Shown piece by piece: positions 26,765-64,000 of a stretch of DNA of 64,000 bases (positions are counted from its first letter, which is position 1; every line of letters begins with the position of its first letter). Source of the DNA: Bdellovibrionota bacterium (lineage in GTDB: Bacteria; Bdellovibrionota_C; UBA2361; SZUA-149; CAZDWZ01). The translations under genes were made by a program, and so were the position numbers. The notes under the pieces are model-generated. The model did no database searches. It was given only the letters and a program-made list of their open reading frames with translations, and had not been told where the DNA came from. The stretch is from the NCBI GenBank assembly GCA_046328905.1, contig JAXLVP010000001.1, positions 46,731-110,730 of the forward strand, given 5' to 3'.

Positions 26765-27250
26765 ATGCGCATAACACAATGGGGTGAGTACGGAGTTCTC
26801 TTCTCCGCCTATATCGCGCGATGTGCCGCGAACGGTGCGAAGATGGTGGGTGCCGCGGAGATCGCGAGCGCGCAGGGAGTTGATCTTCAATATGCACAGC
26901 AGATTCTGCAACGATTGCGGCGCGGGGGCATTATCGACAGCGTTCGTGGGCCTGCCGGCGGCTATCATCTTTGTCGGAACGCCAATGAGCTCACGTTGCT
27001 GGATATTCTCGTCGCCGCTGAAGGCGACACCTTCGAGGTGATTTGCGATACGAAACCGATTGGTGCGGAAAGGTGCATGCCCGGCAACGAGTGCGGGCTA
27101 CGCACTATCTGGTTCGATCTTCGTGATCACGTGAATTCTTTTCTGATGCGCTATACGCTCGAGGATCTCGCTAAGCTCCCGAACGGAACGTTCTGTGGGG
27201 CTCAGGAGCATGACGACGCTCCGATCAAGATCGGTGGCCGTTCCCTGTGA
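26765..27250 (+). CDS. Rrf2 family transcriptional regulator (three-Cys, likely Fe-S binding)
   Basis: N-terminal wHTH, conserved GPAGGYHL motif, Cys triad C-x9-C-x5-C (CDTKPIGAERCMPGNEC). Confidence 0.8.
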   Translation: MRITQWGEYGVLFSAYIARCAANGAKMVGAAEIASAQGVDLQYAQQILQRLRRGGIIDSVRGPAGGYHLCRNANELTLLDILVAAEGDTFEVICDTKPIGAERCMPGNECGLRTIWFDLRDHVNSFLMRYTLEDLAKLPNGTFCGAQEHDDAPIKIGGRSL

Positions 27251-28287
27251 TGGCCGGCTTTCTCGCGGCCTGGTCAGTCCAGGTCTGGGAAGTAATTCTC
27301 GAGAGCGGTTGGTGGCTCCTGCTCGGATTGGGCATTGCTGCCGTGTTGCGCCGTGCTGTCCCATCCTCGCTAATCGAAAGACATCTTCAAGCGCCAGGTC
27401 TCGGCTCGATCTTGAAAGCCTCAGCCGCCGGCGTGCCGCTTCCGCTGTGCTCATGCAGCGTGATTCCGGTTGCTGTTGCGCTCAGGAGACAGGGCGCGGG
27501 GAGGGGGGCTACGGCGAGCTTTCTTGTGAGCACACCGGAGATCGGAGTTGACTCGTTTCTGCTGAGCTGGGGATTGCTCGGTTATCCTATTGCCGTCCTG
27601 CGTGCGGTTGCCGCTTTCGTTTCCGCGGTCGTTGTCGGACTGCTCGTAGAACGGGCTCCGGACGATTCGCTCGTAAAGCCGGTAACAGCTGACGCGGGGC
27701 ACTGCTGTTGTTGCGAAGCTGGGGAACAACCTGAGCAGGCAGCATCACACGGTCTTCTTCATTCGTTTCTCGACCTTCTCGATGACATCGCGCCGTCGCT
27801 CACAATCGGGTTCCTTCTTTCGGGTCTCGTCGCTACGATTGTGCCGGTCGACTTTTTTACTTCGCTCGGTCTGAACCGGTTCCTTCTCATGCTGCTCATG
27901 CTCGTCGTCAGCATTCCGACATATGTGTGCGCGTCCGCGTCGACTGCACTTGTAGCGGCGTTGATGGCTCGCGGGCTTTCAGTCGGGCCGGCGCTGGTAT
28001 TCCTCCTTGCCGGCCCAGCTTCGAACACGGCAACAATCCTCGTCGTGCGCTCAGAGCTCGGACGGGCTGCGGCTGTGCGGTACGTGCTCGGGATCGCCGT
28101 CGTGACCCTCCTGATCGGAGCTGTCGCGGACTCGATCATGGCGTCTGAGGGCGCCGCCATCGCTGCAGCGCATCATCACCCTGACGGATATTTGTCCGCG
28201 ATCGGAGGTATTGCTTGTGTCGCGCTCCTGCTCACGAGCATCTACCGGCGCGCGCACCGGAAGTCGCAGCGGCAAGTGAAAGGTTAG
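27247..28287 (+). CDS. DUF318/YraQ/ArsP-type permease with Cys-rich metal-binding motifs
   Basis: ATGA overlap with Rrf2 stop. Eight or more TM helices. LPLCSCSVIP motif reminiscent of ArsP/DUF318 TPFCSCS. Cytoplasmic loop HCCCCEAGE, His-rich C-terminus (AAAHHHPDG). Confidence 0.7.
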   Translation: MMAGFLAAWSVQVWEVILESGWWLLLGLGIAAVLRRAVPSSLIERHLQAPGLGSILKASAAGVPLPLCSCSVIPVAVALRRQGAGRGATASFLVSTPEIGVDSFLLSWGLLGYPIAVLRAVAAFVSAVVVGLLVERAPDDSLVKPVTADAGHCCCCEAGEQPEQAASHGLLHSFLDLLDDIAPSLTIGFLLSGLVATIVPVDFFTSLGLNRFLLMLLMLVVSIPTYVCASASTALVAALMARGLSVGPALVFLLAGPASNTATILVVRSELGRAAAVRYVLGIAVVTLLIGAVADSIMASEGAAIAAAHHHPDGYLSAIGGIACVALLLTSIYRRAHRKSQRQVKG

Positions 28288-41735: not shown

Positions 41736-42128
41736 CTACTTCGGGGGAAGCCGGCTCAGTCGCTGCATTTTGTCATACAACGAATGTAATTTCTTCTGCT
41801 GCTCCGCGTTTAATACGGGGTCCAAGTCGCGGATGGCCTGGTCGAGTATCGCCTCCATCTCCGGTTGGTGTGACCGGCGGAGCTCGATGACCTTCAGGTG
41901 ATATTCAGTTACGATTTTCTCAATCTGTTGTGATTGCTCCGCTGTCGGGTGAAGCTCGGAGTCCAGCTTGTGCAAAAGTACCCGTCTTACCGCTGGCGGA
42001 CCTTCGTTGATGATACCGAAGAACCAACGGGAGTAATAGATCTTCGTTCCGGCGCTACCGACAACTGCGCCAAGGGAGAATACAACGAGCACTCCGAACC
42101 AGATTCTCAACTTTTGTCGAAGGGTCAT
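41736..42128 (-). CDS. periplasmic Spy/CpxP-like protein (LTXXQ motifs), membrane-anchored
   Basis: N-terminal TM/signal, motifs LHPTAEQSQQIEKI and LNAEQQKKL. Start overlaps previous gene stop (42125-42128). Confidence 0.55.
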   Translation of the reverse strand: MTLRQKLRIWFGVLVVFSLGAVVGSAGTKIYYSRWFFGIINEGPPAVRRVLLHKLDSELHPTAEQSQQIEKIVTEYHLKVIELRRSHQPEMEAILDQAIRDLDPVLNAEQQKKLHSLYDKMQRLSRLPPK

Positions 42129-43785: not shown

Positions 43786-44376
43786 CTAATCACCGTGACG
43801 CTTTCTGAGCAGCGGCGAGAGCCGTAGGATGAGCTGGAGCCGTTCAAAATGGCGAACCCACTCGTCGAGCTCGGCCGCAAGAGCCGCGACGGGAGAACCG
43901 AACCCCGGATCGCAGGCGGCTGCGAGCTCGGTTTCCGCTTTGTGCCGGTAGACGCTCAGGTGGCGATCGCCGAATCTGCTCAGCTCGTAGAAGTCCTCAC
44001 TGAACGCCACAACAACCGGAACCTTTGCAGCGCCGTTAATCCGCAGCTCGTCCTGGAGCTCCGGATTTGGTCTGCTTTCGACGTAACGCATTTCGATAAG
44101 AGGGCATGCGCGCTCAATAGCCGCAAGCATCGGTCCTTGCCGCTGGCAGTCGCCGCACCAAATACCGGACAGAACGAGCACCGGCATTCGTCGTTTGAAC
44201 GATGCTGTGACATTTTGCTGCGCTGCAGTCAGTTGAATGTCTTTTGCATAGCGCTCCCAATTCTCGATCTCATGCGCCTTTCCGGTCTCGAGGTACTGCG
44301 CAACCGGAAGGCCGCGGTCGAAATAGCTGCGGAAGAATTCAATTCGGTGATCGTGGTAGGGGGAGGGGCTGCTCAT
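43786..44376 (-). CDS. thioredoxin-fold protein with WCGDC motif
   Basis: VLVLSGIWCGDCQRQGPML CxxC in thioredoxin-like context. 196 aa. Confidence 0.6.
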   Translation of the reverse strand: MSSPSPYHDHRIEFFRSYFDRGLPVAQYLETGKAHEIENWERYAKDIQLTAAQQNVTASFKRRMPVLVLSGIWCGDCQRQGPMLAAIERACPLIEMRYVESRPNPELQDELRINGAAKVPVVVAFSEDFYELSRFGDRHLSVYRHKAETELAAACDPGFGSPVAALAAELDEWVRHFERLQLILRLSPLLRKRHGD

Positions 44377-54807: not shown

Positions 54808-55551
54808 TCAGCTCCGCTCAGCCTTCGTGCGTCGGTCGAGTAAATCGGTAATCGCCTTTCGCACATCGTCGATGCTTTCGAGGCTTCGAGGGAAGCGGAG
54901 CTCCGCTCTCCGTTCCGATTTGCCGTCGGAGAACGCGAGCACGAACCCGTTCTTGTGCACGGCGATCATTTTCACGAGGTGCTCCTCCGGGTTCAAGGAT
55001 ACATACGCCTGGGCGCATCTGATGAGTGCCTCCGGCTCGTTTTGATTCATGCGAGCTATTATATCGGCGCTGCGGTACGCTATCGGATCCAAGCTCGTTT
55101 CGCTGAACCTTTGTCTGTCGATCCAGCGTATGTCGCCGAAGCCTCCGATCCACCTGAGGTGTTGCCAGTTCAATCGGAAAAATTCGAAGTCGTGCGAGAT
55201 TCCGCGTGCGGCGGAAGCGGGAAATCTTTCAAAGTAGCTCTGCTCAGCGGTGGAGCGTTCGGCGTCGGGGAGCTGAGAAAAGATCCCCATCACGGTAGCT
55301 CTGCGTCCCGCCTGTGCATCCCCAAACTGCGGGCCGTCCGATACGAACAAGCTTGCGCGCGGATCTTTGAGAAGGTTGCGGTAGTGTTCGGAAATTCGGG
55401 AATCGAAAATAACGGGCTCGAGCTGTTCGGTGATGTCATACGGTGTGAGCGACGCGAAGGGATACCCGTCGTGAGATGCCGAGATGGTAGAGAGCACAGC
55501 ATCACGCTGCTGGCAGACGAAATCGATGATGGTTTGCGGTGAGGCTGACAT
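54808..55551 (-). CDS. pyridoxamine 5'-phosphate oxidase-like FMN-binding fold protein with C-terminal DUF2470-like domain
   Basis: N-terminal split-barrel pattern (…AVLSTISASHDGYPFASLTPYDI…DPRASLFVSDG…). Family assignment from pattern recollection. Confidence 0.5.
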   Translation of the reverse strand: MSASPQTIIDFVCQQRDAVLSTISASHDGYPFASLTPYDITEQLEPVIFDSRISEHYRNLLKDPRASLFVSDGPQFGDAQAGRRATVMGIFSQLPDAERSTAEQSYFERFPASAARGISHDFEFFRLNWQHLRWIGGFGDIRWIDRQRFSETSLDPIAYRSADIIARMNQNEPEALIRCAQAYVSLNPEEHLVKMIAVHKNGFVLAFSDGKSERRAELRFPRSLESIDDVRKAITDLLDRRTKAERS

Positions 55552-55664
55552 TCCGGCTCCTCCGGCGGGGCCTTCTCCGAGACGAGACGGCCGAAGTTGA
55601 AGTTCTGGCGCTTTTGGATATGATGGCCCGCAATTTTAGAGCAAATTCGCGGTTAGGGAAACGG

Positions 55665-57257
55665 ATGAGGATTATTGAAGTGTTGCCGCCGGTAACGGCT
55701 GCCGAAGGCGAGCAAAATCGTGTCGAGCGGGTGACAGAGCCCGCGCTGATCTCGGAGAAGTTCAGTGCTCTTCTGGGCGATGAGTCGAAAGTGCGCGCTG
55801 AATCCGTACTGTCGATTGTTCTCCCGAAAACGGATGCCGAGGTGTCCCTAGCGCTTGCCGAGAATACAGCGGGTGGTCAGGCGACCCGTTTGAGCGGCGC
55901 TCGAACCGGACTTGCCGCAGGCGCTGTGCCCGAACCGTCGGAACATCTCGTTTCGCTCGAGAGGCTCAAATCTATCGGAGAAGTAAAAGAGGATCCGACA
56001 ACCGGAGAGCGCTCGATTCGAGTGGGGGCGGGGGTTACCCTGAATGAGCTCAATCAGCATCTTCGCGATTCAGGCTGCGGATACTATTTTCCGGTTGATC
56101 CGACAGAAACTTGGGCGGCGTTGGGAGGAATGACTGCGACGAACGCTTCCGGTGCGCGATCGTATCACTACGGTGCGATGCGAAACTGGATCCTCGCGCT
56201 CGACCTTGTGCTCATTGATGGGAGCCGCTTTTCCATCCGGCGAGGCGAACAGTCGGTGGTGAATGGAGAGCTGCAGTTCTCTTTTCGTGGAGAGCGCCGC
56301 ACGCTTCGCGCAGGGACGATTCCGAAACCGCCCACCAAAAATACACTCGGCTATTCATACGCTGAAGGCCTAGACGCGATCGATGTTTTCATCGGGTCCG
56401 AAGGGACGCTTGCAGCATGCACGGGAATCGAGCTGCGCCTTGCGAAGCTGCCGGAAAATCGCTTGTATTACCTACAGTTCTTCTCCTCTGATGAGTCGGC
56501 CCTTGCTTTCGTCGCTGCCGTTCGCTCGCGTAGAGGGCTTCGCTCGCTTGCAATTGAGTTTCTCGACCGGAAGTCGCTCGAATTAGCGAAGACCGGACCT
56601 TCCGGAGCCAAGAATGCGCCGGCACAAATGGTAACAGACGATACTGCGGCGGCGGTCTATCTCGAAATCGAATATACGAGTGACGACGATCTGGGTGAGG
56701 CCTACGGTGTGCTTGAAGAGCTACTCGCCGATTTCGGAGCAGACTCCAGCGCTTCGTTTGCAGGAATAACCGAGAGAGAGCTGGCGGAGCTGAAAACGTT
56801 TCGACATGCAGTTCCCGAGCACATCAATTCGATAATCGCGAAGCGGAAGAACGAAATTCCCGCGCTGCACAAAATTGCAACGGATATGGCAGTGCCTGAT
56901 TCGGAGCTCGAGAACGTTTACCGCCTTTATCGATCCCGTTTGGACGCTCTGGGCCTCGAGTACGCGATCTTCGGGCACGCCGGGAACAATCATTTTCACG
57001 TTAATATTCTCCCGCGTTCGGCCGAGGAGCTTGCGAAAGCGAAGGCAGTCTATCTCGTGTTCGCTGACGAGGTCGTTCGGGCCGGGGGCGCCGTCGCCGC
57101 GGAACACGGCATCGGCCGCTTGAAAAAGCACTTTCTTAAAATACAATACGGCGCTAGTGCTCAAAGCGGTCCGCTCGCCGAGATGGCTGCCATCAAGCGT
57201 TTCTTTGATCCAAATACCCTGCTCAATCGCGGAGTACTTTTCGATTATGCACAGTAA
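55665..57257 (+). CDS. FAD-linked oxidase (GlcD/D-lactate dehydrogenase family)
   Basis: FAD-binding PCMH domain (…VLPKTDAEVSLALAENTAGGQATRLSGARTGLAAGAVP…) and C-terminal FAD-oxidase domain. Start ATG 55665 after aggga RBS. Confidence 0.8.
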   Translation: MRIIEVLPPVTAAEGEQNRVERVTEPALISEKFSALLGDESKVRAESVLSIVLPKTDAEVSLALAENTAGGQATRLSGARTGLAAGAVPEPSEHLVSLERLKSIGEVKEDPTTGERSIRVGAGVTLNELNQHLRDSGCGYYFPVDPTETWAALGGMTATNASGARSYHYGAMRNWILALDLVLIDGSRFSIRRGEQSVVNGELQFSFRGERRTLRAGTIPKPPTKNTLGYSYAEGLDAIDVFIGSEGTLAACTGIELRLAKLPENRLYYLQFFSSDESALAFVAAVRSRRGLRSLAIEFLDRKSLELAKTGPSGAKNAPAQMVTDDTAAAVYLEIEYTSDDDLGEAYGVLEELLADFGADSSASFAGITERELAELKTFRHAVPEHINSIIAKRKNEIPALHKIATDMAVPDSELENVYRLYRSRLDALGLEYAIFGHAGNNHFHVNILPRSAEELAKAKAVYLVFADEVVRAGGAVAAEHGIGRLKKHFLKIQYGASAQSGPLAEMAAIKRFFDPNTLLNRGVLFDYAQ

Positions 57258-61685: not shown

Positions 61686-62540
61686 ATGATTGTCTTTCGT
61701 ATTGCAGCGCTGATTTTGACCTGTCTCGCCTTTGTCGTCTTGACGCAGGATCTTCAGCTCTTTCCGGTCGCTGCGGCTTCGCTTCTTCCTCGCTCACTGC
61801 AGCGTCCTACCGTTGTGCCGCCGCGCGTGAAAAGCTCGTTCATCGAGACCGAAGATGGAAAGAGGCTCGAAGTCTGGCGGCTCCCTGCGGCTGAGGGCGT
61901 GCCCCCAGTTCCCTACGTAGGACCGGTCTTCCACGGGAATGGAGACTCACTCGATGGCTTCTTCTTTCTTCATCAGTGGTTCTCGAAGCTCGGCATGGTG
62001 AGCTATGGCTTCGACTATCGTGGATATGGGCGCAGCAGCGGTTGGCCGAGCGAGCTTGGTCTTGTCCGTGATGCAGATGCGGTCTGGGACTATGTTATCA
62101 CTCAGGAACGTGCGGAGCCGTCGCAAATGGTCGTATTCGGCTATTCCATCGGAGCTGCGCCTGCCGCGAGAATCGCCAGCTTACACGACGTGAAGCTTCT
62201 GATTCTGGAATCTGCCTTCACCGACGTCCGGCAGACCATTCGAGAGCAGCCGCTTGTGCGGTTTCTGGCGGCGTTTGCCTGGTATCGTCTACCTACTTCG
62301 GAATTTGTCTCACAGCTGCAGGCTACGGACTTAATTCTTGCACACGGCCAAAAAGATACGCTAGTGCTCCCGTATCATTGCGATAAATTACGCGAGCGGT
62401 ATCGCGGGTCGGGCTCGGTCGAAAAAATTACTTCCGTTGAGGCCGGTCACAATGATTTATTTTTCGATATTCGGGATCGGCTCACCGCAGCGGTGCGACG
62501 GTCGTTGGCAATCGACGAGACGGATGAACGAGCGGAGTGA
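61686..62540 (+). CDS. alpha/beta hydrolase
   Basis: N-terminal TM/signal. Nucleophile elbow GYSIGAAPA. HG region PVFHGNGD. C-terminal His (AGHNDL). Confidence 0.7.
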   Translation: MIVFRIAALILTCLAFVVLTQDLQLFPVAAASLLPRSLQRPTVVPPRVKSSFIETEDGKRLEVWRLPAAEGVPPVPYVGPVFHGNGDSLDGFFFLHQWFSKLGMVSYGFDYRGYGRSSGWPSELGLVRDADAVWDYVITQERAEPSQMVVFGYSIGAAPAARIASLHDVKLLILESAFTDVRQTIREQPLVRFLAAFAWYRLPTSEFVSQLQATDLILAHGQKDTLVLPYHCDKLRERYRGSGSVEKITSVEAGHNDLFFDIRDRLTAAVRRSLAIDETDERAE

Positions 62541-62543
62541 GCT

Positions 62544-63224
62544 GTGAGCGCAGTGCAAGCAATTATTTTCGACCTGGACGGCACGTTGACGAACACGATG
62601 CCCTTCCACGCACGCGCATGGCAGCTTGCCTTTCAGAAGCGGCATGGTGTGAGGGTGGAGTCCTTAGAGGCTTATCTCCACGAGGGGGAAAAGGCCGAAG
62701 AATTCGGAAAGTATCTTTACAAGAAATACTTGAACCGTGATGGCAAGCCGGAGGAGCTCGCCGAGATAACCGAGTTCTACAAGCGAGAGCTCGCGGCGAT
62801 TTTTGTATTGCGCTTTTTCCCAGGCGCGCTCGAGCTTGTCAGCCTCCTGGTGAAGAAGGGGTACCGGCTCGGTTTGGTCTCCGGCTCCAAAAGTGTTCAT
62901 ACGCTCTTTGGAGAGCACATCGGCCACCTTGAAGCTTTCGCTGCAGTTGTGAGCGGTGACGACACCTCGATCGGCAAGCCAGCTCCCGATCCGTATCTTC
63001 GCGCGAGCGAGCTGCTCCAAATTGCCCCGAGTGAATGTCTCGCGATTGAGAATGCGCCGTTCGGGATCCGCTCTGCCGTGGCGGCCGGGATGCAGTGTTG
63101 GGCAGTCCTCAATGATTCGCCCGTCCCAGGTGAAGAGCTGCTTGCTGCCGGCGCGACGAAGCTCCTCGAGCAAATTGCGGACCTCGCCGGTCAACTTCCA
63201 GCACGCGACGGGGCGTCCGCCTAA
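62544..63224 (+). CDS. HAD-superfamily hydrolase, subfamily IA
   Basis: Motif I IIFDLDGTLTNT, motif II LVSGS, motif III/IV ...K...VSGDD. GTG start. Confidence 0.75.
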   Translation: MSAVQAIIFDLDGTLTNTMPFHARAWQLAFQKRHGVRVESLEAYLHEGEKAEEFGKYLYKKYLNRDGKPEELAEITEFYKRELAAIFVLRFFPGALELVSLLVKKGYRLGLVSGSKSVHTLFGEHIGHLEAFAAVVSGDDTSIGKPAPDPYLRASELLQIAPSECLAIENAPFGIRSAVAAGMQCWAVLNDSPVPGEELLAAGATKLLEQIADLAGQLPARDGASA

Positions 63225-63286
63225 GGGGAAGCTCCGTCGGTGCCGAATATACCGGCGTCTGATTACTACGATCAGGGCTGGTCAGA

Positions 63287-63772
63287 TTAGCGTTCGTCAA
63301 TCATCTTTCGCTTAATAATCGCGTCCAGGCTGAATTTCCCGGGGCCGGCGATCAGCAGCCAGAACAACATGCACAGATAATAGACCGGGATCTCGACGCC
63401 GTGCTTCACGCGCTCGATGACCTCGTCTGCGTTCCGAACGGTTTCGCATGCCGCCCAACCGTCCGGTAGGTGTACCGTTTTGATCGCGACAAGCATTATG
63501 ACCATCATCGGAATCGAGATGAGCCGCGTCGCAAGCCCAAGTATCATGAGCACAACACCCGCACACTCGGTGCTTACAGCCATGATTGCGTTGAGCTTCG
63601 GGAACGGTATGTGAAGCGTCTCACCGAACCAAACCACGATGTCGTTGAAATGGGTCGCTTTCTCCATGGCGGGGCCGTAAAAGCCGTATGCCAAAATGAA
63701 CCGGAAAAGAAGTGGGGGCAGATCGGCGAGCAGCTGCAGCTTGGAGATAAAGAAGAGATAGAGACGTTTCAT
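63287..63772 (-). CDS. DoxX family membrane protein
   Basis: Four TM helices with the DoxX-like pattern (…LRFILAYGFYGPAMEK…TVHLPDGW…). aagg RBS 8 nt upstream of ATG 63772. Confidence 0.7.
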   Translation of the reverse strand: MKRLYLFFISKLQLLADLPPLLFRFILAYGFYGPAMEKATHFNDIVVWFGETLHIPFPKLNAIMAVSTECAGVVLMILGLATRLISIPMMVIMLVAIKTVHLPDGWAACETVRNADEVIERVKHGVEIPVYYLCMLFWLLIAGPGKFSLDAIIKRKMIDER

Positions 63773-63813
63773 AGAATGCCTTGGGTCATGCAGCCGGAAC
63801 GACTGCGCTGAAA

Positions 63814-63860
63814 CGTTCGCGGAGCGAACGCCTAGAATGCCGCAGGCGCAAGCCTGCGGC
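63814..63860 (-). promoter_or_regulatory. two GC-rich hairpins in the 96-bp spacer between the Cys-rich peptide gene and doxX (candidate attenuator/processing site)
   Basis: Seen in sequence, minus-strand sense: gccgcaggc-ttgc-gcctgcggc (9-bp stem) then cgttcgc-tcc-gcgaacg (7-bp stem). No clean U-tract. Confidence 0.35.
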
Positions 63861-63868
63861 AGAAGAAG

Positions 63869-64000
63869 CTATTTACCGCTCCCACATTTCCCTTCGCCAC
63901 ACTTCCCTTCGCCTTTCGGTGACGGGGTAGGAGAGGGCTTCGGCTTCTTATCGCCGCCGCACTTGCCTTCGCCGCATTTTCCATCACCCTGTTCGTGGAT
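63869..64000 (-). CDS. C-terminal 43 aa of a Cys-rich EGKCG-repeat peptide (HvfA/bufferin-like RiPP precursor candidate); partial, continues past right edge
   Basis: Minus-strand translation ...IHEQGDGKCGEGKCGGDKKPKPSPTPSPKGEGKCGEGKCGSGK* (stop = plus 63869-63871). Four G-K-C-G units. Not in ORF track because N-terminus lies outside window. Confidence 0.5.
   Translation of the reverse strand: MHEQGDGKCGEGKCGGDKKPKPSPTPSPKGEGKCGEGKCGSGK

What the first reader, a model, noticed from the sequence alone, without database searches (positions are those of the whole stretch)
63287..64000. EGKCG-repeat Cys-rich peptide, hairpins, then DoxX at the right edge: candidate metallophore RiPP locus without adjacent modification enzymes
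The partial minus-strand gene ends in four copies of a (E/D/S)GKCG motif separated by a Pro/Lys linker. From memory this is the hallmark of HvfA-type 'bufferin' precursors. In those peptides Cys residues are converted to oxazolone/thioamide copper-binding units by a DUF692 multinuclear-iron enzyme with a DUF2063 partner, and DoxX genes recur in those operons. Here the peptide gene is followed on the same strand by two stable hairpins, which is typical of attenuation between a RiPP precursor and downstream genes, and then directly by doxX. No DUF692/DUF2063 gene lies between them. Either the maturation genes sit upstream beyond 64000 in an unusual order, or this is a variant (unmodified Cys-based metal buffer, or one modified in trans). 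An ECF sigma/anti-sigma pair and two CpxP-like envelope-stress proteins lie elsewhere in the window but are about 20 kb away, so no link is claimed.
Basis: partly seen in the sequence, partly recalled or inferred. Interest (0 to 1): 0.7.

Follow-up and report, generated by a model that had tools for sequence, protein, structure and literature searches.

The report
Leaderless copper-peptide gene paired with DoxX
At the window's right edge lie a gene for a small secreted cysteine-rich peptide of the known copper-binding HvfA/oxazolin family and its usual DoxX membrane partner (HvfX), but the two enzymes that normally modify such peptides are missing from the operon and the peptide has lost the motif found in enzyme-linked relatives.

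Summary
The minus-strand ORF at the window edge ends in DGKCGEGKCG, a Pro/Lys linker, then EGKCGEGKCG. It passes the NCBIfam HvfA-family domain model. The DoxX gene 96 nt downstream passes the HvfX model. The spacer folds into three hairpins (z = -4.8).

An identical public contig adds 323 nt. It shows an 86-aa precursor with a Sec-type signal peptide and 194 nt of non-coding DNA upstream.

No MNIO (HvfB) or DUF2063 (HvfC) gene lies in the 64-kb window, in that extension, or on the syntenic contig of the closest relative.

Among 39 informative HvfX loci, 17 are canonical A-B-C-X, 13 carry X alone and 8 carry A-X only. The A-X-only loci fall in about five separate HvfX clades. All 12 such precursors, including this one, lack the LGSGxxVRS motif. 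All 17 MNIO-linked precursors examined have it. Most A-X spacers carry a terminator-like hairpin.

A relative with 62% identical HvfX has the same peptide core, the motif, and a tightly coupled A-B-C-X operon.

Best reading: a B-C deletion derivative whose peptide is probably exported unmodified. Modification in trans is not excluded, because the rest of the 3.26-Mb genome could not be searched. This is a variant of a known system, of moderate interest.

The parts
63869..64000 (-). 3' part of the hvfA-like precursor gene: residues 44-86 of an 86-aa pre-peptide, plus the TAG stop at 63869..63871. It encodes two KCGEGKCG double motifs separated by the linker GDKKPKPSPTPSPK. The 5' part (signal peptide, start codon, RBS) lies beyond the window at L007 195..323.
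   Evidence: Translation. NF050137 scores 30.7 and 27.9 bits against a cutoff of 19.5. The full ORF comes from L007, which is 100% identical to the window over 1975 nt.
63773..63868 (-). Structured 96-nt spacer between the precursor gene and hvfX. It is a proposed partial terminator or transcript-stabilising element that sets a high peptide-to-HvfX ratio.
   Evidence: MFE -44.5 kcal/mol, z = -4.79. Eight of ten A-X loci from other organisms also have a strong hairpin in this spacer, and in the low-GC loci a U-run follows it. No Rfam family matches.
63838..63861 (-). Hairpin 1: 10-bp G+C-rich stem, 4-nt loop, beginning 8 nt after the stop codon.
   Evidence: Dot-bracket positions 8-31 of the fold.
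63812..63832 (-). Hairpin 2: 9-bp stem, 3-nt loop, followed by UUUC.
   Evidence: Dot-bracket positions 37-57 of the fold.
63790..63806 (-). Hairpin 3: 7-bp stem, 3-nt loop, 18 nt upstream of the hvfX start codon.
   Evidence: Dot-bracket positions 63-79 of the fold.
63287..63772 (-). hvfX: a 161-aa DoxX-family four-helix membrane protein, the last gene of the unit.

Best explanation
This is a two-gene derivative (hvfA-hvfX) of the known four-gene hvfA-hvfB-hvfC-hvfX ('oxazolin' / Buf_EGKCG / captophorin) operon, in a Bdellovibrionota genome.

Shown:
- The gene encodes an 86-aa pre-peptide with a Sec-type signal peptide. Cleavage is predicted after SFA. The roughly 53-aa mature peptide carries two KCGEGKCG double motifs.
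- hvfX follows after a 96-nt spacer with three hairpins.
- The modification genes hvfB (MNIO) and hvfC (DUF2063/RRE partner) are not in the operon or anywhere in the 64 kb held.

Inferred:
- The B-C pair was deleted from an ancestral, tightly coupled A-B-C-X operon of the kind still found in a close relative.
- In parallel the peptide lost the conserved post-signal motif LGSGxxVRS, which every MNIO-linked precursor of this HvfX clade keeps.
- The peptide is therefore most likely exported unmodified and acts in the periplasm through its cysteine thiolates, as a low-affinity Cu(I) or soft-metal binder or a thiol buffer.
- HvfX is made at a lower level by read-through of the hairpins and is the peptide's real functional partner. 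It is a periplasm-facing, probably quinone-linked membrane protein that handles the peptide's sulfur redox state or holds the peptide at the membrane.
For: Identity of both genes comes from curated models.

The full precursor, its RBS and 194 nt of non-coding upstream DNA come from the identical contig L007.

No MNIO is present. An HMM built from 26 MNIO ORFs found nothing at E<=1 in the window. tblastn with the MNIO and HvfC of a relative whose HvfX is 62% identical gave only noise, best E = 0.59.

The closest relative (P0002, 70% identical, syntenic HAD and DnaJ-ankyrin genes) has a 99-aa ORF followed by DoxX and no MNIO on its 8.7-kb contig. L008 (58%) has a 3x KCGEGKCG precursor followed by HvfX and no MNIO within 10 kb upstream.

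Survey: of 39 informative loci, 17 are A-B-C-X, 13 X alone, 8 A-X only and 1 has a distant A-B pair. The A-X-only loci sit in about five separate clades of the HvfX tree, interleaved with A-B-C-X clades.

The LGSGxxVRS motif is present in 15 of 15 MNIO-linked precursors and 0 of 12 A-X-only precursors. It is also present in L082 and L092.

L092/L093 (HvfX 62% identical, sharing the subclade-specific insertion) is a tightly coupled A-B-C-X operon. Its precursor has the same core of two double motifs and a P/K linker (51% identity) and also has the motif.

Terminator-like hairpins occupy the A-X spacer in 8 of 10 loci.

Links between HvfX and quinone flavoproteins in other A-X loci: NDH-2 overlaps the hvfX stop codon in L008, and a Gluconate_2-dh3 plus GMC oxidoreductase pair follows hvfX in L018, L020, L023 and L027 (Pfam-confirmed for L018 and L027; inferred from near-identical ORFs in L020 and L023).

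Literature: unmodified HvfA still binds 2-3 Cu(I), but weakly (PMC11252979). DoxX is dispensable for the modification (PMC11626156).
Against: The rest of the 3.26-Mb genome could not be read, so an MNIO/HvfC pair elsewhere is not excluded. A search seeded with a related MNIO returned more than 8000 hits, and its top 120 held none from this contig, which is uninformative.

In the published survey only 67 of 2583 complete genomes with EGKCG precursors lack an MNIO (PMC12452194).

HvfBC and FonBC modify leaderless core fragments in vitro (PMC11252979; 10.1101/2025.11.18.689057). Loss of the motif therefore does not prove loss of modification.

The exact EGKCG pentamer that the MNIO prefers is perfectly conserved here. 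This is what continued MNIO selection would predict.

The leader motif was defined after seeing the data, and the loci are phylogenetically non-independent.

Many HvfX genes stand alone (13 of 39), so HvfX need not act on the peptide.

The proposed quinone or sulfur role of HvfX rests on family analogy and gene neighbourhood only.
Confidence: 0.5

Rival explanations
1. Modification in trans. The genome encodes an HvfB/HvfC (MNIO/PME1) pair at another locus, perhaps with its own leader-bearing precursor. That pair converts the four cysteines of this peptide to 5-thiooxazoles before Sec export. The locus is then an ordinary captophorin precursor plus HvfX, merely unlinked from its enzymes.
For: About 97% of complete genomes with EGKCG precursors also have an MNIO. 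Unlinked precursor genes are reported, for example in Legionella (PMC12452194). The core is two intact EGKCG double repeats, which is the minimal FonBC substrate, and leaderless HvfA is still modified (10.1101/2025.11.18.689057; PMC11252979). Bdellovibrionota do carry MNIO genes: B. bacteriovorus HD100 has one MNIO and one DUF2063, and Bdellovibrionales MAG MNIOs appear as P0159, P0175 and P0197.
Against: The LGSGxxVRS motif kept by all 17 MNIO-linked precursors examined is missing here and in all 11 other A-X-only precursors, across about five clades. Remote substrates in other RiPP systems normally keep the leader (general knowledge). Without partner binding, Sec export should outcompete cytoplasmic modification, a point raised as speculation in PMC12452194. 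No MNIO lies within 64 kb here or within +/-10 kb in L018, L027 and L068.
Confidence: 0.35
2. Decaying remnant. After loss of hvfB and hvfC, the peptide gene is a non-functional leftover, and only the DoxX gene is under selection.
For: HvfX genes commonly stand alone (13 of 39 loci; L094). No public gene call exists for the peptide: it is absent from the 5.8-billion-protein collection, and the Logan annotation called an antisense ORF instead.
Against: The ORF is intact, with a GGAG RBS 6 nt upstream, a canonical signal peptide and four perfect KCG units. The small-ORF-then-DoxX pair is kept in the 70% and 58% relatives. A-X-only modules with 3-12 intact KCG units recur in about five clades. 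A structured spacer of the terminator-read-through type is maintained.
Confidence: 0.07
3. Unusual gene order. hvfB and hvfC lie upstream of the peptide gene, beyond the 323-nt extension, as part of the same cluster.
For: Only 194 nt upstream of the start codon could be read. One locus, L065, has A-B about 7 kb from X.
Against: The 194 nt are non-coding on both strands. The syntenic relative has an aldo-keto reductase on the opposite strand, then a response regulator and a histidine kinase upstream, with no MNIO in 4.3 kb. None of the 39 surveyed loci has a B-C-A-X order.
Confidence: 0.05

Closest known systems
hvfABC-hvfX operon of nontypeable Haemophilus influenzae (oxazolin; PMC11252979)
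   Same: Both have a signal-peptide precursor with C-terminal (A)EGKCGEGKCG double motifs and a DoxX-family HvfX encoded next to the precursor. Both window proteins pass the NCBIfam family-level models built on this system.
   Different: No HvfB or HvfC is adjacent. The window peptide has two double motifs rather than three. It lacks the N-region Cys pair. It fails the HvfA equivalog model (23.6 bits against a cutoff of 95). The organism is a Bdellovibrionota, not a Pseudomonadota.
Buf_EGKCG/oxazolin and 'captophorin' gene clusters (PMC12452194; 10.1101/2025.11.18.689057)
   Same: The precursor class is the same (Lys-Cys 5-mer repeats, Sec signal). The core gene set is described as precursor, MNIO, DUF2063 and DoxX 'in various combinations'. 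Precursor genes not linked to an MNIO are reported.
   Different: A captophorin cluster is defined by MNIO plus PME1, and neither is present here. Three features seen here do not appear in the passages of these papers that I read: co-loss of the leader motif, recurrence of the A-X module in several clades, and the terminator-like spacer.
L092/L093 metagenomic A-B-C-X operon (HvfX 62% identical)
   Same: HvfX shares the subclade-specific 13-residue insertion. The peptide core is the same: two KCGEGKCG motifs and a Pro/Lys linker, 51% identity.
   Different: L092 has an MNIO and HvfC with overlapping or 4-nt gene junctions and no hairpins. Its peptide carries LGSGQTVRS and a region roughly 30 residues longer between the signal peptide and the first KCG.
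Bufferin 1 operon bufA1B1C1D1 of Caulobacter vibrioides (PMC11626156)
   Same: A Sec-exported Cys-containing copper-binding peptide is encoded with a DoxX gene (bufD1) in the same operon. That DoxX is not needed for the modification.
   Different: The precursor fold is different (DUF2282). MNIO and DUF2063 are present. An ECF sigma/anti-sigma pair regulates it.
DoxX/DoxD-fold membrane proteins: thiosulfate:quinone oxidoreductase DoxDA, M. tuberculosis DoxX, and human NACHO/TMEM35A (PDB 9h9e_C)
   Different: No activity is known for HvfX. No cysteines are conserved. Its partners here are a secreted peptide and, in other A-X loci, flavoproteins.

Membership tests
HvfA family / Buf_EGKCG (oxazolin-type) precursor | Repeated KCGExKCG double motif (NCBIfam NF050137 domain model) | tested here: met
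   30.7 bits on the fragment and 27.9 bits on the full 86-aa peptide, against a cutoff of 19.5.
HvfA family / Buf_EGKCG (oxazolin-type) precursor | N-terminal Sec signal peptide on a short (about 70-130 aa) protein | tested here: met
   The full ORF is 86 aa. MNVNSMCKKSG is a positively charged n-region, VVAAGFALAAFVSLSL is a 16-residue h-region, and PSTSFA gives small residues at -3 and -1. This was judged by inspection; no SignalP tool was available.
HvfA equivalog (H. influenzae-type oxazolin precursor, NF050188) | Full-length match above the equivalog cutoff of 95 bits | tested here: not met
   23.6 bits, and only the C-terminal repeat region aligns. MNIO-linked precursors from other phyla also fail this cutoff (11.7-53.8 bits), so the model is narrow.
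Captophorin / oxazolin biosynthetic gene cluster | MNIO (DUF692, HvfB) gene adjacent to the precursor | tested here: not met
   No hit at E<=1 with an HMM built from 26 MNIOs across the 64-kb window. tblastn with L002 and L092 MNIOs gave only noise. Nothing lies in the 323-nt extension.
Captophorin / oxazolin biosynthetic gene cluster | PME1 partner (DUF2063 + RRE, HvfC) gene adjacent | tested here: not met
   tblastn with L002 and L092 HvfC gave only noise, best E = 0.83. The sensitivity of this test is lower than for the MNIO.
Captophorin / oxazolin biosynthetic gene cluster | MNIO and PME1 present anywhere in the genome | not testable with these tools
   The source contig (3,256,849 bp) could not be retrieved. 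A protein search seeded with a related MNIO was saturated at 8000 hits, with none of the top 120 from that contig.
MNIO-linked KCG precursors of this HvfX clade | Post-signal motif LG[STN]G..[VL]R[ST] (putative partner-recognition region) | tested here: not met
   Present in 15 of 15 MNIO-linked precursors and 0 of 12 A-X-only precursors, including the window. Also present in L082 and L092. In the alignment, the window's signal-peptide cleavage site occupies the motif's position.
HvfA family / captophorins | Cys converted to 5-thiooxazole; high-affinity Cu(I) binding | not testable with these tools
   This needs mass spectrometry, UV spectroscopy, alkylation and metal titration of the native peptide.
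HvfX family (DoxX-type partner of Cu-binding RiPPs) | NCBIfam NF050144 equivalog score above cutoff; Pfam DoxX | tested here: met
   131.3 bits against a cutoff of 80, covering profile positions 2-165 of 165. PF07681 E = 1.2e-13.
HvfX family (DoxX-type partner of Cu-binding RiPPs) | Encoded next to a Cys-rich signal-peptide precursor | tested here: met
   It lies 96 nt downstream of the precursor on the same strand.
HvfX family (DoxX-type partner of Cu-binding RiPPs) | Four-helix DoxX membrane fold | tested here: met

The most novel reading that the evidence does not exclude
The hvfA-hvfX pair is a self-sufficient, MNIO-independent envelope system. An unmodified EGKCG peptide is exported, and its cysteines are handled by HvfX, for example by quinone-linked oxidation or reduction or by retention at the membrane. 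In some lineages dedicated flavoproteins (NDH-2; periplasmic GMC oxidoreductase with a Tat small subunit) feed HvfX. This would give the long-uncharacterised HvfX/BufD DoxX proteins a function tied to the peptide rather than to its maturation. It would also define a non-RiPP branch of the oxazolin/captophorin family that arose repeatedly by B-C deletion.
Probability: 0.35. Interest if true: 0.7.

Novelty: new variant of a known kind. Interest (0 to 1): 0.5.

Why it matters
EGKCG peptides (oxazolin, fontiphorin, gonophorin) are a very large, recently recognised class of copper-binding peptides, and one of them is a Haemophilus virulence factor. Two questions about them are open. What does the DoxX partner (HvfX/BufD) do, given that it is dispensable for the modification and, in Caulobacter, for copper protection? 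And are precursor genes found away from an MNIO modified at all?

This locus and its relatives offer a natural experiment. The peptide and DoxX genes stay together after the enzymes are gone. The peptide sheds the motif that all enzyme-linked relatives keep. A read-through hairpin replaces the enzyme genes.

If the peptide proves to be unmodified, the family has a thiol-based, enzyme-free branch, and HvfX function can be studied without the MNIO chemistry in the way. If it proves to be modified in trans, it shows that the conserved N-region is not needed in vivo.

Either way the locus is an ordinary member of a known system in terms of parts. The interest lies in the arrangement.

Tried and rejected
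1. Extending the contig. A GTDB genome scan with HvfX found only relatives at 42% identity or below, not the source genome. Exact-protein look-up returned one 2.3-kb Logan contig that adds 323 nt. The 3.26-Mb NCBI contig named was not retrievable.

2. Looking for an MNIO of the same genome. A protein search seeded with the L082 MNIO was saturated (8000 candidates), and none of the top 120 came from the 3,256,849-bp contig. This is uninformative.

3. A weak tblastn MNIO hit at window 56878..56994 (E = 0.017) lies inside a 572-aa ORF at 55539..57257 and is not recovered by the MNIO HMM. I rejected it.

4. The full precursor used as a protein query found only three distant Pseudomonadota-type homologues and no identical entry.

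5. Rfam scan of the leader, gene and spacer found nothing above threshold. One sub-threshold chance hit to RF03136 scored 19.7 bits against a gathering score of 35.1.

6. The sigma-70 promoter scan found no site upstream of the peptide gene or of hvfX. No promoter is assigned.

8. Plasmid search with HvfX found only hits at 33-35% identity. The two inspected (Moraxella, Acinetobacter) are canonical MNIO-containing clusters and add nothing on the A-X form.

9. I looked for copper genes near the locus and found none among the 20 window ORFs scanned. I claim no link to the LTXXQ/CpxP-like gene 20 kb away.
Full report
**1. What is in the sequence**

On the minus strand, window 63872..64000 translates to IHEQGDGKCGEGKCGGDKKPKPSPTPSPKGEGKCGEGKCGSGK, followed by TAG at 63869..63871. 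The ORF runs off the window edge. GKCG occurs four times here and nowhere else in the six-frame translation of the 64-kb window.

The fragment passes the NCBIfam domain model NF050137, 'KCGExKCG_twice, HvfA family', at 30.7 bits against a cutoff of 19.5.

Ninety-six bases downstream on the same strand, 63287..63772 encodes a 161-aa protein. It matches Pfam DoxX. It also passes the NCBIfam equivalog NF050144, 'HvfX family Cu-binding RiPP maturation protein', at 131.3 bits against a cutoff of 80.

The spacer folds into three hairpins with stems of 10, 9 and 7 bp. MFE is -44.5 kcal/mol and z = -4.79 against dinucleotide shuffles.

The next gene is a convergent HAD-family hydrolase, so the unit ends at hvfX.

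**2. Completing the peptide gene**

An exact-sequence look-up of the DoxX protein returned a 2298-bp Logan contig, L007 from SRR26348422. It is 100% identical to window 62026..64000 and extends 323 nt further.

The complete ORF (L007 195..455) encodes 86 residues: MNVNSMCKKSGVVAAGFALAAFVSLSLPSTSFA | NTSDQISAGRIHEQGDGKCGEGKCGGDKKPKPSPTPSPKGEGKCGEGKCGSGK. A GGAG sits 6 nt before the ATG. The N-terminus has the three-part layout of a Sec signal peptide, with small residues at -3 and -1 (SFA). I judged this by inspection.

The 194 nt upstream carry no ORF on either strand. They contain a 12-bp hairpin just before the RBS.

An identical DoxX protein is on record as 'MAG: DoxX family protein [Bdellovibrionota bacterium]' on a 3,256,849-bp contig. 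The peptide itself is absent from the 5.8-billion-protein collection. The Logan annotation called an antisense ORF in its place.

**3. Are the maturation genes nearby?**

No. I built an HMM from 26 MNIO ORFs collected in related loci. It finds every MNIO in those loci at E of 1e-40 to 1e-155, and nothing at E<=1 in the window.

tblastn with the MNIO and HvfC of two relatives gives only noise. One of those relatives has an HvfX 62% identical to the window's. The best E-values were 0.59 for the MNIO and 0.83 for HvfC.

The closest relative found is P0002, 70% identical. It lies on an 8.7-kb contig that shares the convergent HAD gene and a DnaJ-ankyrin gene with the window. There, a 99-aa ORF precedes DoxX. 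Upstream lie an oppositely oriented aldo-keto reductase, a response regulator and a histidine kinase. No MNIO or HvfC is present.

L008 (58% identical) has a 125-aa precursor with three GEGKCGEGKCG units followed by HvfX, and no MNIO in 10 kb upstream.

**4. How unusual is this?**

A metagenome scan with an HvfX alignment gave 80 loci. Adding the loci fetched by exact look-up, 39 non-redundant loci have at least 2.2 kb upstream of hvfX. They divide as follows:

| Arrangement | Loci |
|---|---|
| Canonical A-B-C-X | 17 |
| hvfX alone | 13 |
| A-X with no MNIO in the flank | 8 |
| A-B pair 7 kb away | 1 |

Several A-X loci have the full +/-10 kb of flank (L018, L027, L068).

In a neighbour-joining tree of HvfX, the A-X loci fall into about five groups interleaved with A-B-C-X groups:
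- window + L008
- L035/L036
- the L018/L019/L020/L023/L027 group
- L068/L081/L087
- L050

The arrangement therefore recurs and is polyphyletic.

The literature already says that EGKCG clusters contain the four core genes 'in various combinations'. It also reports that 67 of 2583 complete genomes with such precursors lack an MNIO (PMC12452194).

**5. A correlated change in the peptide**

All 15 KCG precursors that sit next to an MNIO in this data set carry LG[STN]G..[VL]R[ST] a few residues after the signal peptide, and E[LM][KE]C at the first cysteine. None of the 12 A-X-only precursors does, including the window's. Two more MNIO-linked precursors found later, L082 and L092, also have the motif.

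I defined the motif after looking at the data, and the loci are related. The nominal Fisher p of 6e-8 is therefore not a probability. The independent events number about five, not twelve.

The most telling comparison is L092/L093. Its HvfX is 62% identical to the window's and shares a 13-residue insertion found only in the five closest homologues. Its operon is A-B-C-X with 4-nt or overlapping junctions and no hairpins.

Its peptide reads ...VDQAKALGSGQTVRSRILANISGDSLYAADKPAPAKEGEGKCGEGKCGDDEMKPAPKATPADSKKAPDSKSGEGKCGEGKCGE. The core is the same as the window's: two double motifs and a Pro/Lys linker, 51% identity. It also has the motif and a longer region between the signal peptide and the first KCG. 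In the alignment, the window's signal-peptide cleavage site falls where the motif would be.

The simplest history is deletion of B-C from such an operon, with loss of the N-region motif from the peptide.

**6. The spacer**

In 8 of 10 A-X loci from other organisms, the A-X spacer (66-109 nt) holds one strong hairpin. In the low-GC loci a run of U follows it directly, and only about 15-25 nt remain before the hvfX start codon. That leaves no room for a separate promoter. hvfX must be expressed by read-through.

This is the classical precursor, partial terminator, downstream gene design. It gives much more peptide mRNA than partner mRNA. The window's G+C-rich version has three hairpins and poor U-tracts. 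Whether it terminates, pauses or stabilises the transcript is inferred, not shown.

No Rfam family matches.

**7. What HvfX might do**

The AlphaFold2 model is confident (pLDDT 95.4). It shows four long helices plus a beta-hairpin formed by the subclade-specific insertion. Applying the positive-inside rule (my inference), both termini are cytoplasmic. The invariant polar residues K38, H101 and E127 then lie at the periplasmic ends of helices.

In other A-X loci, hvfX is followed by quinone-linked flavoproteins:
- L008: an NDH-2 gene whose start overlaps the hvfX stop.
- L018 and L027: a Tat-signal Gluconate_2-dh3 subunit plus a GMC oxidoreductase, confirmed by Pfam. L020 and L023 carry near-identical ORFs that I did not scan.

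L036 and L068 have an ECF sigma factor and a small Cys-containing ORF directly upstream of the peptide gene.

Published work shows that DoxX is not required for the modification or for copper protection in Caulobacter (PMC11626156). HvfX is still called uncharacterised in 2026 (10.64898/2026.07.17.739211).

I therefore propose, at low confidence, that HvfX is a periplasm-facing, quinone-linked or client-holding partner of the exported peptide. The analogy is to thiosulfate:quinone oxidoreductase DoxDA, which forms an S-S bond at the outer face of the membrane (general knowledge).

**8. Modified or not?**

This is the unresolved point.

For 'unmodified':
- The enzymes and the motif were lost together, repeatedly.
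- Sec export competes with cytoplasmic modification.
- Unmodified HvfA still binds 2-3 Cu(I), though more weakly than BCA (PMC11252979).

For 'modified in trans':
- Most genomes with such precursors have an MNIO somewhere.
- HvfBC and FonBC accept leaderless cores.
- The MNIO-preferred EGKCG pentamer is perfectly conserved here.
- Bdellovibrionota do have MNIOs.

I could not search the rest of this genome. I put the unmodified reading at about 0.5, trans-modification at 0.35, a decaying remnant at 0.07 and enzymes just upstream at 0.05.

**9. Comparison and verdict**

By its parts, this is a member of the HvfA/HvfX (oxazolin, Buf_EGKCG, captophorin) system. Both proteins pass curated family models.

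It is not a captophorin gene cluster in the defining sense, because MNIO and PME1 were tested for and are not there. The peptide also fails the narrow HvfA equivalog model (23.6 bits against 95).

It is best filed as a variant: a leaderless hvfA-hvfX two-gene module.

The chemistry should be updated to 5-thiooxazole. The 'DUF2282-related' remark should be dropped.

Interest is moderate. The arrangement bears on two open questions, HvfX function and the fate of unlinked precursors, but nothing here is outside the known system.

Noticed in passing
L007 141..169 (beyond the window; about 25 nt upstream of the precursor RBS): A 12-bp hairpin (AGCATTCGGGGTATGACATCCCGGGTGCT) sits just before the peptide gene's ribosome-binding site. 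It could be a 5'-UTR element, a regulator-binding palindrome or the terminator of an upstream gene. The surrounding 100 nt are not unusually structured (z = -1.0), and no sigma-70-like promoter was found.
   Followed up: partly
L018 10424..12720; L027 10450..12707; same layout in L020 and L023; L008 10450..11787: In other MNIO-less A-X loci, hvfX is followed directly by flavoprotein oxidoreductase genes. One form is a Tat-signal Gluconate_2-dh3 subunit plus a GMC oxidoreductase (Pfam-confirmed in L018 and L027; near-identical ORFs in L020 and L023 were not scanned). The other is an NDH-2-type enzyme whose start overlaps the hvfX stop. This hints that HvfX works with quinone-linked redox enzymes.
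   Followed up: partly
L068 8534..9398; L036 1728..2595: An ECF sigma factor and a small (91-99 aa) Cys-containing ORF with no Pfam match lie directly upstream of the leaderless precursor-hvfX pair. This resembles the sigma/anti-sigma control described for bufferin-1 clusters.
   Followed up: partly
L009/L010/L011 (for example L009 9304..9891): An HvfX 59% identical to the window's is preceded not by a KCG peptide but by a 195-aa secreted protein. That protein has 17 cysteines, an internal duplication and no Pfam hit. It may be a different Cys-rich client of HvfX.
   Followed up: no
L019 1087..1587; L023 5047..5877: Two A-X-only precursors carry EF-hand-like calcium loops (for example DMDTNEDGKVSKTEF and DKNKDGFIDADE) between KCG blocks. 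They resemble the Buf_EGKCG/EF-hand fusions reported in PMC12452194, but here they occur without an adjacent MNIO.
   Followed up: no
window 63407..63454 (HvfX residues about 107-122): The window's HvfX and its four closest homologues (P0002-P0005) share a 13-residue insertion (AACETVRNADEVIERVKHG region). It is predicted to form a beta-hairpin between helices 3 and 4. It contains a Cys in all five proteins. It occurs in both A-X and A-B-C-X operons, so it is not tied to loss of the enzymes.
   Followed up: partly
window 63869..64000 and L007 195..455: The peptide gene seems to be unannotated in public data. The exact 86-aa sequence is absent from the 5.8-billion-protein collection, and the Logan gene call at this place is an antisense ORF. 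Surveys based on annotated proteins will miss loci like this one.
   Followed up: yes
window 26765..28287 (+): An Rrf2-family transcriptional regulator is followed by an ArsP_1-type predicted permease. This is a possible metalloid- or redox-responsive pair, 35 kb from the finding, and no link is claimed.
   Followed up: no
window 41736..42128 (-) and 43786..44376 (-): One small ORF has a sub-threshold LTXXQ (CpxP-like) match (22.4 bits against 24.3). A Thioredoxin_9 protein is also present.
   Followed up: partly
L094 1..2652: The homologue with 65% identity (P0005) has no peptide gene. Its hvfX follows a long ORF that looks like a 4-alpha-glucanotransferase by eye; no family search was run on it. 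Even within the closest subclade, HvfX can stand alone.
   Followed up: no
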